The notes under the pieces: model-generated
What the model saw: the letters and a program-made list of their open reading frames with translations, nothing else
Told to the model about the DNA's origin: nothing
Databases searched by the model: none
Shown: positions 58,619 to 64,000 of the stretch, one piece after another
Layout: every line of letters begins with the position of its first letter
Numbering within the stretch: the stretch's first letter is position 1
Origin: Escherichia phage 121Q
Direction: 5' to 3' (one strand)
Sequence record: NC_025447.1
DNA: 64,000 bases
Translations under genes and position numbers: made by a program

Positions 58619-61600
58619 TTAAGCAGTACGTTGTGCAATAAACATATCTGTTACTGGACTCACACCGTCATAAATGACTTGGTAGATAGTTACAGAGTTT
58701 GCAGTTTTGTTCAGTGTGCCATCAACAACCGCATAAGTACCATCAGTAGTAAAGTTTCTATTACCTGTTGCATCTTGTTTCACATAAATGTATACTGAAG
58801 ATGCTTTACCACCACCGATTAGACCAGTGATTGGTGCTAGAGTGGTATCTTGATCTAGAGTGATAAAGTATACGTTGCTAGTACCGTCTGGGGTCCAAGT
58901 ACCAGTTGGTGCGATAACAGAAGAAGTTACTTGATTAGGAATAACATCATATTTTTTAGTAGTTACTGTTGTAGTAGTTAGGTCAGCATTAGTAGTTGTT
59001 AATTGACCAGTTACAGTTACATCTTTATCAAATACTGCATTTTCTTTGAAAGAAGATGTTGCATTGACAGTTAATGTATCAGCAGCAGCGTCACCTAAAA
59101 CAACACTACCATTTGCAGTCATTAAACCAGTAACAGTTAAAGTACCACCGATTGTTGCTGCTCCAGTAACAGATGCACTAGCAAGTGTTGCTGCACCAGA
59201 AGTAGTAATGGTAGTTACTGAAGTTGCTGCTAGGGTTGCAGTACCTGTTGCAGAAATATCACCACCAACAGTTAGGTTACCAGAAGTAATTCCAACGGTT
59301 CCAGTAATGTTAGCACCACTTGACATTGTTACTGCACCACCAAATGAACCAGTAGTAGTTACTTCAAGGGTGTTCCCTTTTAGTAGACCAGTTGCAGTAA
59401 TACTTGTACCTGCGGTAATACTAGTACCAGCAGCAACACTGTTGGTTGCAGTTAATGATTTAACAGCCACGTCAGAGTTTGCTTGGTTTAGTGTTGCGTT
59501 AAGTAGACCAGTTACTGTAAAGTTACCGTTGTTAACTACGTTACCATTGATTGTTAAGTTGTTGTTTTGTGAACCAACATCACCAATAGTTGCTGATTTG
59601 GAAATCAACTCTGCACCAGAAGTAATATTACCCGCTGCACTAATAGTGTCCGCCGCAACAACTGCATAAGGTTCAATTGTTTGACCACTAACGTCAATAT
59701 CAGCGTTGATACCACCATCTACACGCAAGGAGCCAGCAATGTAAGTATTAGGGAAAATCTGAACTGTCTCTGGTTGATCGCCAATTTTAGTACCGATAAT
59801 AACATCAGCACCAGTTTTAACTGCACCAGAGGTTGTTAGAGAACCTAAAGTTGTAGCACCAGTTACACCTAATGTACCACCAATTGTTGCGTTATTAGTA
59901 ACTGCTAACGCAGCACCTTCACCATTAAGAGCGATTGATGGAGCAGATACTGCACCAGTTACGCCTAATGTGCCACCAATTGTTGCGTTGCCATCTGAAT
60001 GTAGAGTTGTAGCTACAGAAAGACTGTTAGCAACTACATCAGTACTAGCTAAATCCAATGCACCTGGGGTTAATGTACCAGTAATGTTAACATTATTACC
60101 AAAGGTCGCTGCACCAGTCACATCTAGTGTAGTACTAAATGTACCAGATGTTGCAGAGATTGCACCTGAATCTAGTGATCCAACAGTTGCTTTACCAGTT
60201 ACACCTAAAGTTCCACCAACAGTTCCATTTGTGGTTACATCCAATGTACCAGTACTTAGTTCTTGTGCGGTTACCTTACCGGATGCAGTAACAGTTGAAG
60301 TGGAAACACCACCAGTTAGAGTACTAGCACCAGTAACACTTAATGTGGTTGCCGCAGTTACGCTATTCACACTAAGATCAGCACCGGATAAGTCCAAACC
60401 ACCTTCAGGAACAAATACACCCTTAACAGTTAGTTTTTGTACTGTACTATCACCTGTTACATCCAATGTAGAAGCAGTTAAACCACCATTCATACTTGCT
60501 GCACCAGTAACACCTAGTGTAGTGGTTACAGTAGCACTATTAAGTGTTGAGCTACCAGAAATATTAGCACTAGAAGCAGTAATAGTTCCAGAATCAACTT
60601 GTATACCACCAGCAACAACCTGAATTCCACCAGCATTAACTGTTAGTTTACCAGCAGTATTCAATGTATTTGAAACTGTTGTTGCACCAGTTAAAGTTGT
60701 AGTGCCAGTTACACCTAAGTTACCAGAAATAGATGGACTACCTGTAATGTTACCAGTAGTTAGTATCAAATCAGTACCTACGGTAGTGGAGCCAGTACTT
60801 TCTAGTGTTACACCGACGATGTTTGCAGAACTTAGGTTAATAGTACCATCAACAGTTAAGTTACCTTGAACGGTTGCATCACCTAGAGAAGTTAATGTCT
60901 TCACAGACACATCAGTTGTGCTAAGATCAATAACACCCGCAGTTAGTGTTCCAGATACTGCTAAATTACCAGTAATCGCGGTATTTTTAGTAATGGATAC
61001 ATTTTCTGCCGCTGAAGTAATAGAACCAACAGTAAGTACACCACCAACAGTTGCGTTATTAGTTACATTTAGAGCAGTTCCAACACCAGATAGTGTTGCT
61101 GACCCACCAGTAATTGCACCTGAGATTGAAGCTGTTGCTGCTGAAACATCACCAGAAACTACTGCATTTGTTGCATTTAGAGCAGACACTGTAACTTCAG
61201 TACTTTGAACTTTAGGTAGAACGTTGATACCTTCTGCACTACTAACTGTAATAATACCAGTACTTGTTAGAGATTTAACAGATACATCAGCACCACTTAA
61301 ATCAACTGTACCAGAAACAACAAGATCTCCACCAATATTTGCTCCAGCGGTAGTAGTAATGGATTTTGCACTTACATCAGTTGTGCTCAAATCAATTGCA
61401 CCTGGTGTTACTGTACCAGAAACTGTTAGGTCACCAGTAATAGATGTATTATTGGAAATAGATACACCATCAACGTTACTAATTGTTGGGGTTTCTACAG
61501 AAACTGCTTTAACTTTACCTGAAGAAGTTACGTCAGCTACGGTAGATGCACCAGTAACATTCAAATTAGTAATATTTGCAGTTGTTGAACCAAGGGTTGC

Positions 61601-64000: not shown

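What the first reader, a model, noticed from the sequence alone, without database searches (positions are those of the whole stretch)
58619..64000. Giant fibre gene extends past the window edge and is built from tandem coding repeats
The minus-strand reading frame remains open upstream of the track start (an internal GTG at 63622), so the protein is at least about 1790 aa and its N-terminus is outside the window. It contains a 2x ~510-bp and a 3x ~430-bp tandem repeat set. Such repeats are hotspots for recombinational length variation and host-range change, and they also generate long spurious Ala/Val/Pro-rich antisense ORFs.
Basis: seen in the sequence. Interest (0 to 1): 0.45.

Follow-up and report, generated by a model that had tools for sequence, protein, structure and literature searches.

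The report
Modular long fibre of jumbo coliphage
This is the already catalogued 1,841-residue virion fibre gene of Asteriusvirus jumbo coliphages (phAPEC6 gp256); it really is built from old internal repeats whose number differs between related phages, which is interesting for fibre-length evolution but not a new kind of thing.

Summary
The minus-strand frame is open from 58619 to the window edge (1,793 codons, no stop). Identical published genomes show that only 48 residues lie outside the window, so the full protein is 1,841 aa.

The window is 100% identical to Asteriusvirus jumbo coliphages SHEFM2K, G17 and Sharanji. The gene is phAPEC6 gp256, a 180-kDa protein found in that virion by mass spectrometry.

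The repeats are real:
- Two 170-aa units at 510-nt spacing, BLASTP E 3e-73.
- Four ~138-157-aa units at 435, 414 and 465-nt spacing; the fourth is degenerate.

In this allele the repeats are old: 54-66% nucleotide identity, and one shared exact run of 30 nt. They are therefore poor recombination substrates here. Relatives do differ in copy number:
- JP4 and CRJP21 have a third 170-aa unit.
- UB, JP4 and CRJP21 have a tandem duplicate of a 112-aa unit.
- fEgEco12 has two whole fibre genes in tandem.

The Val/Ala/Pro-rich antisense ORFs exist, and the PBECO4 record annotates three of them as genes.

The most likely function is a long trimeric β-strand fibre that, with a co-distributed DUF4376 partner, contacts the host, possibly the flagellum. 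Homologues occur in three phages reported as flagellum-dependent, and the fibre is missing from RaK2, the syntenic locus checked, and from the K. pneumoniae jumbo phages in the collection. An effect on host range is untested. The gene is known, so interest is modest.

The parts
58619..64000 (-). Fibre gene, residues 49-1841 plus the stop codon (58619-58621). The first 48 codons lie beyond the window.
   Evidence: Open frame. Identical to SHEFM2K M2K_0545 and phAPEC6 gp256. PHROG 4549 at 9e-227.
63656..64000 (-). N-terminal conserved region, aa 49-163 of the part inside the window. The family's nearly invariant M-Y-S-I-K-T-D-L start lies just outside. Presumed virion-anchoring end.
   Evidence: Nearly invariant N-terminal columns across 24 homologues.
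63146..63655 (-). Repeat unit A1 (aa 164-333, 510 nt). It contains a non-fibrous insert with the motif 'FPYTAPGKRPTVIL...GITGNGLNKLDYLTVSGN'.
62636..63145 (-). Repeat unit A2 (aa 334-503, 510 nt). It is 62% identical to A1 at protein level and 66% at DNA level. JP4 and CRJP21 carry a near-identical extra copy of this unit.
61907..62320 (-). Repeat unit B1 (aa 609-746). Like every B unit, it has two copies of a 13-aa motif (I/L/V-D-L-S-x-x-D-V/L-x-x-K-S-L/I) exactly 30 residues apart.
61493..61906 (-). Repeat unit B2 (aa 747-884).
61022..61492 (-). Repeat unit B3 (aa 885-1041).
60605..61021 (-). Repeat unit B4 (aa 1042-1180), degenerate: 31-40% identical to B1-B3 over the whole unit.
59897..60232 (-). 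Unit C (about aa 1305-1416, 336 nt; the phase is arbitrary). Single here, tandemly duplicated in UB, JP4 and CRJP21, where the two copies are about 90-100% identical at DNA level.
58622..58951 (-). Conserved C-terminal all-β domain (aa 1732-1841).
   Evidence: AF2 pLDDT above 90 for the last ~100 residues. 36-43% identical to the C-terminus of fibres in phiTE, POP15, CR3 and rV5-like phages; 339 phage records match. No significant Foldseek match in the PDB.
57775..58554 (-). 259-aa DUF4376 virion protein, the likely fibre partner. No terminator separates it from the fibre gene.
   Evidence: Pfam DUF4376 at 3e-08, PHROG 17968. It lies directly downstream of the fibre gene in every locus inspected and is found only in fibre-bearing phage groups. 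Homologues are in the CBB and fENko-Kae01 virion proteomes (PMC5259590).
57745..57768 (-). Terminator-like hairpin after the DUF4376 gene. It marks the likely end of the fibre transcription unit.
59046..62753 (+). Span holding six antisense ORFs: 59046-59669, 59970-60623, 60918-61208, 61224-61622, 61647-61979 and 62205-62753. They are by-products of the fibre's Thr/Gly/Ser/Val/Ala codon bias, not genes.
   Evidence: All lie in one plus-strand frame and are Val/Ala/Pro/Leu/Thr-rich. The equivalents are annotated as hypothetical proteins in PBECO4.

Best explanation
The region encodes the single very long fibre protein of Asteriusvirus jumbo coliphages, the protein called gp256 in phAPEC6. It is a Thr/Gly/Ser/Val/Ala-rich, almost all-β polypeptide. 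It most likely forms a homotrimeric, β-helix-type shaft roughly 50-120 nm long.

The layout has three parts:
- A conserved N-terminal end that anchors it to the virion.
- A shaft assembled from duplicated modules. There are two 170-aa 'A' units, each carrying a non-fibrous insert, four ~140-155-aa 'B' units and further degenerate units.
- A conserved ~100-aa C-terminal β-domain.

The modules arose by ancient in-frame tandem duplication and are kept by selection as shaft segments. Fibre length still changes between lineages by gain or loss of whole modules through unequal recombination or replication slippage. That gives 2 or 3 A units, 1 or 2 C units, and even a duplicate of the whole gene.

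The fibre works together with the 259-aa DUF4376 virion protein encoded directly downstream. The most likely role is the first, long-range contact with the host, probably the flagellar filament.

Shown: gene identity, virion association, repeat architecture, copy-number differences between relatives, phyletic distribution and synteny.

Inferred: trimeric state, length, which end is anchored, partnership with the DUF4376 protein, and flagellum binding.
For: Identity and virion association:
- 100% nucleotide identity to SHEFM2K, G17, Sharanji and E9.1, and about 99.9% to phAPEC6.
- The gene is phAPEC6 gp256, 180.38 kDa, with 15 unique peptides in the virion proteome (PMC7247149, Table 1).
- Homologues CBB_226 and ENKO_255c were also detected in virions (PMC5259590).
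- PHROG 4549 'tail fiber' at 9e-227.

Fibre fold:
- The only solved relative is the 793-aa phiTE tail fibre protein. It matches at phmmer E 4e-30 and family-profile E 7e-72.
- PMC11972413 describes the phiTE long tail fibre as a trimer with an extended predicted β-helix 512 Å long.

Repeats.

Copy-number variants:
- JP4 and CRJP21 are 2,129 aa, with a third A unit that is 85-97% identical at DNA level to its neighbour.
- UB is 1,959 aa, with a 112-aa tandem duplicate.
- Three A units also occur in the distant homologues P0002, P0011 and P0012.
- fEgEco12 has two tandem fibre paralogues.

Partner protein: the DUF4376 gene sits immediately downstream in every locus inspected. It gives no K. pneumoniae phage hits.

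Flagellum lead:
- SHEFM2K, whose fibre is 100% identical, is reported as flagellotropic. This rests on the title of Alsharif et al. 2025 and the statement citing it in PMC11895373.
- fENko-Kae01 is blocked by fliC, fliG, flhA and flgH mutations, and its only long tail fibre is a homologue (PMC11218385).
- phiTE is flagellotropic (PMC11972413).
- A Munch-resistant Salmonella mutant is also fully resistant to a Chi-like flagellotropic phage (PMC8273493).
- The fibre module is precisely missing at the syntenic locus of RaK2. K. pneumoniae jumbo phages give no hit at all. That K. pneumoniae is non-motile is my own knowledge.
Against: - No experiment links this protein to any receptor.
- The C-terminal domain also occurs in hundreds of rV5-like and other phages, including K. 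pneumoniae phages that are not known to use flagella. The domain itself is not a flagellum-binding signature.
- The phiTE authors favour the short fibres, not this homologue, for first contact with the flagellum (PMC11972413).
- The absence from K. pneumoniae phages could reflect a switch to capsule-degrading spikes rather than the lack of flagella.
- The SHEFM2K paper could not be read.
- The trimeric state and the length are extrapolations. The AF2 model of the A units was unusable (pLDDT 49), and the shaft part of the other model has pLDDT 50-72.
- The N-terminal baseplate anchor of the phiTE fibre has no counterpart here, so the attachment site is unknown.
Confidence: 0.6

Rival explanations
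1. The protein forms the ~120-nm 'hairs' (whiskers) that decorate the tail sheath, and perhaps the capsid, of hairy Rak2-like jumbo myoviruses such as phAPEC6, CBB and fEgEco12. On this reading it is not a fibre attached to the baseplate. This rivals the best explanation only on location; it is compatible with a role in catching flagella.
For: - phAPEC6 and CBB show only short baseplate fibres (28.6 nm in CBB) plus long hairs (119 ± 10 nm in CBB, with a tiny terminal globule). The proteins that form the hairs are unidentified (PMC7247149, PMC5259590).
- Scaling from the phiTE fibre (793 aa for 512 Å, PMC11972413) gives about 119 nm for 1,841 aa. Even a single-chain β-helix would give about 50 nm. 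Either is too long for the short baseplate fibres.
- RaK2 lacks the gene. The CBB paper presents hairs as not described in other Rak2-like phages.
- fEgEco12 is described as hairy and has two copies of the gene (PMC13070987).
Against: - GAP32 carries a homologue but was not described as hairy.
- The hairy Y3, Lu11 and JA-phage lineage has no detectable homologue (PMC6143709).
- The homologous phiTE fibre is anchored on the baseplate wedge (PMC11972413).
- CBB_226 is 1,553 aa, which scales to about 100 nm rather than 119 nm.
- No structural or labelling data exist, and the length scaling is crude.
Confidence: 0.3
2. It is a T4-type 'long tail fiber proximal subunit' (gp34-like), as many records annotate it. 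On this reading it is a passive proximal half-fibre joined through hinge proteins to a separate distal receptor-binding half-fibre.
For: - The annotation appears in SP27, UB, ph0011, CBB, GAP32 and fEgEco12.
- The C-terminus is conserved and two virion-protein genes follow, which superficially recalls the T4 gene order 34-35-36-37.
Against: - No sequence similarity to the T4 gp34 fragments that I recall as deposited in the PDB. Neither the single-sequence search nor the family-profile search hit anything but phiTE.
- No T4-like phage appears among the tblastn hits listed.
- No Pfam, NCBIfam or PHROG link to gp34.
- The downstream 654-aa protein is conserved even in RaK2-like K. pneumoniae phages that lack the fibre, so it is not a dedicated distal half-fibre.
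- No gp36- or gp37-like gene was seen in the module.
Confidence: 0.07
3. The repeats or the length variants are assembly artefacts, and the true gene is shorter, longer or interrupted.
For: - Repetitive fibre genes are prone to collapse or expansion in short-read assemblies.
- The CMSTMSU and PBECO4 records show a fragmented or unannotated version of the gene.
Against: - At least ten independent genomes from different laboratories carry exactly the 5,526-nt gene.
- The repeats here are only 54-66% identical at DNA level, with one 30-nt exact run, so they are too diverged to confuse an assembler.
- The 2,129-aa allele is found in two independent isolates, JP4 and CRJP21.
- The frame is intact over 1,793 codons.
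Confidence: 0.03

Closest known systems
phAPEC6 gp256, equivalent to SHEFM2K M2K_0545, SP27 EO157G_5450 and G17/Sharanji 'hypothetical protein' (PHROG 4549, Asteriusvirus fibre)
   Same: Same gene. It is 99.8-100% identical at protein level, has the same length (1,841 aa) and the same neighbours. It was detected in the phAPEC6 virion by mass spectrometry (PMC7247149).
   Different: Nothing differs in sequence. The internal repeat architecture, the copy-number variants in relatives and the link to flagellum dependence were not described in the papers I could read.
Pectobacterium phage phiTE tail fibre protein phiTE_241 (PDB 9cuy chain g, 793 aa; most likely the 'LTF' of PMC11972413)
   Same: The only solved relative. 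It is homologous over one A-type unit (profile positions 340-533 against chain 180-371), over the β-strand shaft with the same D-(V/L)-S/D-G-x-D-(I/L)-x-P-x-S-V motif, and over the C-terminal ~110-aa domain. It is trimeric and comes from a flagellotropic phage.
   Different: - It is less than half the length and has one A unit instead of two.
- Its N-terminal helical-bundle baseplate anchor (residues 14-171, the only part modelled experimentally) has no counterpart here.
- No DUF4376 gene is annotated downstream, and the next ORF gives no Pfam hit.
- I did not confirm that chain g is the LTF.
Long fibres of other Rak2-like jumbo phages: CBB_226, the GAP32 'long tail fiber proximal subunit', fENko-Kae01 ENKO_255c, Munch, fHe-Yen9-04 g218c and Serratia BF
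   Same: They are orthologues at 33-40% identity. They share the conserved N-terminus, two A units at residues ~163-503, B-type units, the C-terminal domain, a DUF4376 gene directly downstream and the same flanking genes. Several were detected in virions. fENko-Kae01 is flagellum-dependent.
   Different: Lengths range from 1,374 to 2,129 aa through different numbers of shaft modules.
T4 gp34 (long tail fibre proximal half-fibre)
   Same: It is also a very long repetitive trimeric phage fibre protein, and its name is the one most often used in annotations of this gene.
   Different: No detectable sequence relationship, and no gp35/36/37-type partners.

Membership tests
Rak2-like jumbo-phage long fibre (PHROG 4549; phAPEC6 gp256 / CBB_226 / ENKO_255c) | Full-length sequence homology | tested here: met
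   PHROG 4549 at 9e-227 in 7 stretches. 25 homologues with E from 0 to 5e-22. 100% identity to annotated genes.
Rak2-like jumbo-phage long fibre (PHROG 4549; phAPEC6 gp256 / CBB_226 / ENKO_255c) | Conserved locus. The gene order is tail protein, ~295-aa virion protein, fibre, DUF4376 protein, ~650-aa structural protein, thymidylate synthase. | tested here: met
   Same gene order in SHEFM2K, SP27, fENko-Kae01 and CBB. The module is missing at the same place in RaK2.
Rak2-like jumbo-phage long fibre (PHROG 4549; phAPEC6 gp256 / CBB_226 / ENKO_255c) | The protein is part of the virion | not testable with these tools
   From the literature only. gp256 gave 15 peptides (PMC7247149), CBB_226 gave 10 peptides (PMC5259590), and ENKO_255c is marked 'identified with LC-MS/MS'.
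phiTE-type (Vequintavirinae) long tail fibre, PDB 9cuy_g | Homologous β-strand shaft, A-type insert domain and C-terminal domain | tested here: met
   phmmer E 4e-30 and profile E 7e-72. BLASTP segments with E from 2e-17 to 3e-10.
phiTE-type (Vequintavirinae) long tail fibre, PDB 9cuy_g | N-terminal α-helical bundle and globular domain that dock on the baseplate wedge and sheath initiator | tested here: not met
   No alignment reaches phiTE residues 1 to ~180. The N-terminus here starts directly with β-strand repeat sequence.
T4 gp34 'long tail fiber proximal subunit' | Sequence or profile similarity to gp34 | tested here: not met
   The PDB, which from my own knowledge holds gp34 fragments, returned only phiTE with both the single sequence and the family profile. 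No T4-like phage appears among the listed tblastn hits. No Pfam or NCBIfam hit.
T4 gp34 'long tail fiber proximal subunit' | Joined through hinge proteins (gp35/gp36) to a distal receptor-binding half-fibre (gp37) | tested here: inconclusive
   Two virion-protein genes follow. However, the 654-aa one is also present in phages that lack the fibre. The 259-aa one is DUF4376, with no link to gp35/36.
FliK flagellar hook-length control protein (annotation in CMSTMSU and EJP2) and autotransporter (annotation in fHe-Yen9-04 and POP15) | FliK C-terminal domain, or an autotransporter β-barrel | tested here: not met
   No such Pfam or NCBIfam hit at E up to 1 and 0.1 respectively. These names reflect low-complexity or β-helix resemblance.
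Bactofilin-like β-helix repeat (PF04519) | Score above the Pfam gathering threshold | tested here: inconclusive
Flagellotropic-phage flagellum-binding fibre (functional class) | Binds the flagellar filament, and infection needs flagella | not testable with these tools
   Indirect only: reports on SHEFM2K, fENko-Kae01 and phiTE; Munch cross-resistance; absence from RaK2 and from K. pneumoniae jumbo phages (PMC11895373, PMC11218385, PMC11972413, PMC8273493).

The most novel reading that the evidence does not exclude
The gp256-type fibre, together with its DUF4376 partner, is the still unidentified ~120-nm 'hair' or whisker of hairy Rak2-like jumbo myoviruses. It serves as the organelle that captures the rotating flagellum. 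Its reach would be tuned in evolution by adding or dropping whole 112-170-aa shaft modules, or by duplicating the whole gene.
Probability: 0.25. Interest if true: 0.6.

Novelty: already known. Interest (0 to 1): 0.3.

Why it matters
The gene itself is catalogued, so the finding adds no new kind of element. Three things of practical value came out of the check.

- The same gene is annotated in public records under at least seven names: hypothetical protein, tail fibre, T4-like proximal subunit, FliK, autotransporter, colanic-acid-degrading protein and cytoskeletal protein. In PBECO4 it is replaced by antisense ORFs. A consistent description is needed.
- Natural alleles differing by exactly one 170-aa or one 112-aa module give a clean system for asking how fibre length affects adsorption.
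- The fibre and its DUF4376 partner are present in jumbo phages reported as flagellum-dependent and absent from RaK2 and the K. pneumoniae jumbo phages. This makes two small open questions directly testable: what the hairs of 'hairy' jumbo phages are made of, and how these phages use flagella.

Tried and rejected
- Tandem Repeats Finder found only short 9-21-nt arrays. The long repeats are too diverged for it.
- A BLASTP self-comparison returned only the identity hit. I replaced it with a diagonal-identity scan and unit HMMs.
- Pfam and NCBIfam gave no significant family for the fibre. The precomputed Pfam family PF26209 listed for the homologues gave no hit when four of them were scanned against the local Pfam library, so I could not name it.
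- The AF2 model of the two A units was unusable (pLDDT 49). The fold of the A-unit insert remains unknown.
- I considered a T4-like arrangement with the 654-aa downstream protein as the variable distal receptor-binding half-fibre. I rejected it. That protein is 99-100% identical in the close relatives, about 52% identical in CBB, and present in K. pneumoniae phages that lack the fibre. The different downstream gene lengths seen in UB come from an extra inserted gene.
- I considered the antisense ORFs as possible real overlapping genes and rejected it. They all lie in one frame and have the composition expected from the complement of ACT/GGT/GTT/GCA-rich codons.
- The SHEFM2K paper (PubMed id 39908945) is not held in the library.
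- Not used: the search of protein representatives, the metagenome and genome contig scans, and the third fold search. The question did not need them.
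Full report
**1. What the window is**

Megablast of 58619-64000 against the phage collection gives 100% identity over all 5,382 bases to Escherichia phages SHEFM2K, vB_EcoM_G17, Sharanji and E9.1. Identity is about 99.9% to phAPEC6 and 99.3% to SP27. These are ~350-kb Asteriusvirus jumbo myoviruses of the Rak2-like group. The window's low G+C content (31-39%) and its gene content fit this.

**2. The observation**

- The minus-strand frame from 58619 to 64000 has 1,793 sense codons and only the terminal stop. The other five frames carry 31 to 228 stops.
- The window segment equals SHEFM2K L001 9001-14382 exactly.
- In SHEFM2K the annotated gene M2K_0545 starts 144 nt further upstream. 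The start is an ATG preceded by GGAGG and, further up, a terminator hairpin.
- The complete protein is therefore 1,841 aa, and only 48 residues are outside the window.
- The same 5,526-nt gene is present in at least ten independently sequenced genomes. That makes an assembly artefact unlikely.

**3. The repeats**

DNA repeat families have start-to-start spacing of 510 nt (75-76% identity over 58-216 nt) and of 465, 414 and 435 nt (60-75%).

At protein level a diagonal scan gives 46 of 60 identities at offset 170, and 39-47 of 60 at offsets 145 and 138. The weaker offset 155 gives 35 of 60.

I defined these units:

| Unit | Residues | Window coordinates |
|---|---|---|
| A1 | 164-333 | 63146-63655 |
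| A2 | 334-503 | 62636-63145 |
| B1 | 609-746 | 61907-62320 |
| B2 | 747-884 | 61493-61906 |
| B3 | 885-1041 | 61022-61492 |
| B4 | 1042-1180 | 60605-61021 |

- A1 against A2 gives BLASTP E 3e-73. The real score is 212 bits, against a maximum of 26.6 bits for shuffled sequence.
- B pairs give E values from 1e-13 to 8e-44.
- A 13-residue motif, (I/L/V)-D-(L/V)-S-x-x-D-(V/L)-x-x-(K/N)-S-(L/I/V), occurs 12 times. It occurs twice per B unit, exactly 30 residues apart. The same motif appears in the alignment to the phiTE fibre.

**4. Age of the repeats and copy-number variation**

In this allele the copies are old.

- A1 and A2 are 66% identical at DNA level, and B pairs are 54-64% identical.
- The whole gene contains just one direct exact repeat of at least 20 nt, which is 30 nt long.
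- Unit HMMs find the two A units at residues ~163-503 in almost every homologue, down to ~33% identity. The A duplication therefore predates the radiation of these jumbo phages.

Lineages nevertheless differ by whole modules.

- JP4 and, independently, CRJP21 encode a 2,129-aa protein. It has an exact 170-aa insertion that forms a third A unit, 85-97% identical at DNA level to its neighbour.
- UB (1,959 aa), JP4 and CRJP21 carry a tandem duplicate of a 112-aa segment that is single here (about aa 1305-1416, window 59897-60232). The two copies share exact runs of 69-119 nt.
- Three A units also occur in the distant metagenomic homologues P0002, P0011 and P0012.
- fEgEco12 has two complete fibre paralogues in tandem, of 1,644 and 1,906 aa.
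- Homologue lengths range from 1,374 to 2,129 aa.

The window's own allele is a poor substrate for homologous recombination. Whether length changes alter host range is untested.

**5. Antisense ORFs**

Six plus-strand ORFs of 96-217 aa lie inside the gene, all in one frame. Their composition is Val 18-25%, Ala 8-16% and Pro 10-15%. This is what the complement of the fibre's ACT/GGT/GTT/GCA-rich codons produces.

In the PBECO4 record three such antisense ORFs are annotated as hypothetical proteins, while the fibre gene is not annotated. That record is also cut inside the gene.

Elsewhere the sense gene is variously named: hypothetical protein, tail fibre protein, long tail fibre proximal subunit, autotransporter, FliK, or colanic acid-degrading protein.

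**6. What the protein is**

- Composition is Thr 18.9%, Gly 12.1%, Ser 10.6%, Val 10.2% and Ala 10.0%.
- It matches PHROG 4549 'tail fiber protein' at 9e-227. Pfam and NCBIfam give nothing significant; bactofilin scores 15.2 bits against a cut-off of 27.9.
- The identical phAPEC6 gp256 is listed in that phage's virion proteome at 180.38 kDa, with 15 unique peptides (PMC7247149).
- CBB_226 and fENko-Kae01 ENKO_255c are also virion proteins (PMC5259590).

The only solved relative in the PDB is chain g of 9cuy, the 793-aa 'putative tail fiber protein' of Pectobacterium phage phiTE.

- It matches at phmmer E 4e-30 and family-profile E 7e-72.
- Homology covers one A-type unit, the shaft and the C-terminal ~110 residues. 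It does not cover the phiTE N-terminal ~180 residues.
- PMC11972413 describes the phiTE long fibre as a trimer. Its N-terminal helical bundle docks on the baseplate wedge, and its remainder is predicted as an extended β-helix 512 Å long.
- I infer, but did not confirm, that chain g is that long fibre.

AlphaFold2 on residues 1560-1841 gives a confident all-β C-terminal domain (pLDDT above 90 for the last ~100 residues). The shaft part is a low-confidence β-helix.

- Foldseek finds nothing significant.
- The model of the A units failed (pLDDT 49), as is common when a trimeric fibre is folded as a monomer.

By scaling, the fibre would be about 119 nm long as a phiTE-like trimer and about 50 nm as a single-chain β-helix. 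This is inference.

**7. Context**

The fibre gene follows an upstream terminator. No terminator separates it from a 259-aa DUF4376 gene (57775-58554), which is itself followed by a terminator.

- The DUF4376 gene is directly downstream of the fibre gene in every locus inspected. It is a virion protein in CBB (16 peptides, 68.5% coverage) and in fENko-Kae01. It gives no hits in K. pneumoniae phages (PMC5259590).
- The next gene (55726-57690, 654 aa) is a conserved structural protein. It is also present in RaK2-like K. pneumoniae phages, so it is not specific to the fibre.
- In RaK2 the syntenic interval between the 'tail protein' and the homologue of the 654-aa protein holds only a 115-aa ORF. 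The fibre module is missing there. The CBB authors had already noted that CBB_226 has no homologue in RaK2 (PMC5259590).

**8. Function**

Both ends of the protein are its most conserved parts. The first eight residues are nearly invariant across the family. The last ~200 residues are 93-95% identical in relatives whose shafts are ~80% identical.

The C-terminal domain alone is found in 339 phage records, including rV5-like phages. It therefore looks like a generic docking or assembly module rather than a strain-specific receptor binder. The faster-evolving DUF4376 protein is a better candidate for the tip. It is 45-81% identical in other Asteriusvirus clades and ~27-30% identical in other genera.

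A functional lead is flagella.

- SHEFM2K, whose fibre is identical, is reported as flagellotropic. The report is cited in PMC11895373; I could not read the original.
- fENko-Kae01 is blocked by fliC, fliG, flhA and flgH mutations, and its authors found only this one long fibre gene (PMC11218385).
- phiTE is flagellotropic (PMC11972413).
- A Munch-resistant Salmonella mutant is cross-resistant to a Chi-like phage (PMC8273493).
- The module is absent from RaK2 and from the K. pneumoniae jumbo phages in the collection. That K. pneumoniae is non-motile is my own knowledge.

Against this, the phiTE authors favour the short fibres for first contact. The C-terminal domain is not restricted to flagellotropic phages. 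The K. pneumoniae phages may have lost the fibre for reasons connected with the capsule.

**9. The whisker question**

phAPEC6, CBB and fEgEco12 are 'hairy'. They have long flexible filaments on the sheath (119 ± 10 nm in CBB) and only short baseplate fibres (28.6 nm in CBB). The hair proteins are unidentified (PMC7247149, PMC5259590, PMC13070987).

A 1,841-aa fibrous virion protein has to be something visible, and the hairs are the only long filaments described. That makes gp256 a candidate.

The evidence against is as follows. GAP32 has the gene but was not described as hairy. Another hairy lineage (Y3, Lu11, the JA phages) has no detectable homologue (PMC6143709). The phiTE homologue sits on the baseplate. 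I rate this reading at about 0.25-0.3.

**10. Verdict**

- The gene is already known and annotated.
- The added value is the module map, the natural copy-number alleles, the annotation muddle, and a testable link to flagella and whiskers.
- Interest is 0.3.

Noticed in passing
window 54762-55691 (+), thymidylate synthase: The thymidylate synthase next to the fibre module is listed as virion-associated in two independent proteomes: phAPEC6 gp259c with 3 peptides, and fENko-Kae01 ENKO_251 marked 'identified with LC-MS/MS'. That is odd for a nucleotide-metabolism enzyme (PMC7247149).
   Followed up: no
L008 (PBECO4 KC295538) 2287-3030, 5311-5601 and 5917-6963, on the strand opposite to the fibre gene: The reference genome of the species Asteriusvirus PBECO4 annotates three antisense Val/Ala/Pro-rich ORFs as hypothetical proteins and leaves the fibre gene unannotated. 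The linear record is also cut inside the gene.
   Followed up: partly
L015 (fEgEco12 PP777464) 1-4092 and 4242-9530: The fEgEco12 clade carries two complete fibre paralogues in tandem: g317 (1,644 aa) and g316 (1,906 aa). The related vB_Ec-M-J, BF17 and Turkey3 also show two annotated features under the match. I did not analyse which parts differ between the paralogues.
   Followed up: partly
L004 (UB MH383160) 8135 onward; the same in CRJP21 L016 7520 onward: UB and CRJP21 have an extra 1,368-nt gene between the DUF4376 gene and the homologue of the 654-aa structural protein. It is absent from the window.
   Followed up: no
L001 (SHEFM2K) 5665-7806, just beyond the window edge: A 713-aa 'colanic acid degradation protein' has a weak pectate-lyase-like β-helix match (PF12708 at 3e-05, below the cut-off). 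It lies two genes upstream of the fibre in Asteriusvirus but is absent from the same position in fENko-Kae01 and CBB. It is a likely depolymerase spike added to the module.
   Followed up: partly
UB fibre residues ~621-650 compared with ~904-933 (L004): In UB and JP4, units B1 and B3 are more alike than in the window: 49-53 against 35-47 of 60 nt, and 51-52 against 40 of 60 aa. UB and JP4 also have a 6-aa insertion in B1. I read that insertion, by eye, as bringing B1 closer to the B2/B3 form. Together this looks like a gene-conversion patch between non-adjacent repeats.
   Followed up: partly
window 58622-58951 (C-terminal domain of the fibre): This ~100-aa domain is 35-43% identical to the C-terminus of a tail fibre in hundreds of ~135-160-kb myoviruses. 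These include rV5-like, Phapecoctavirus, CR3, PBES02, phiTE and some K. pneumoniae phages. No solved structure or Pfam hit was found for it.
   Followed up: partly
window 51727-53151 (+) and 50327-51652 (+): A 474-aa protein annotated as 'HNH endonuclease' and a 441-aa ATPase lie a few genes from the fibre module, with the same genes nearby in RaK2. The ATPase homologue, phAPEC6 gp265c, is in the virion proteome with 6 peptides (PMC7247149).
   Followed up: no
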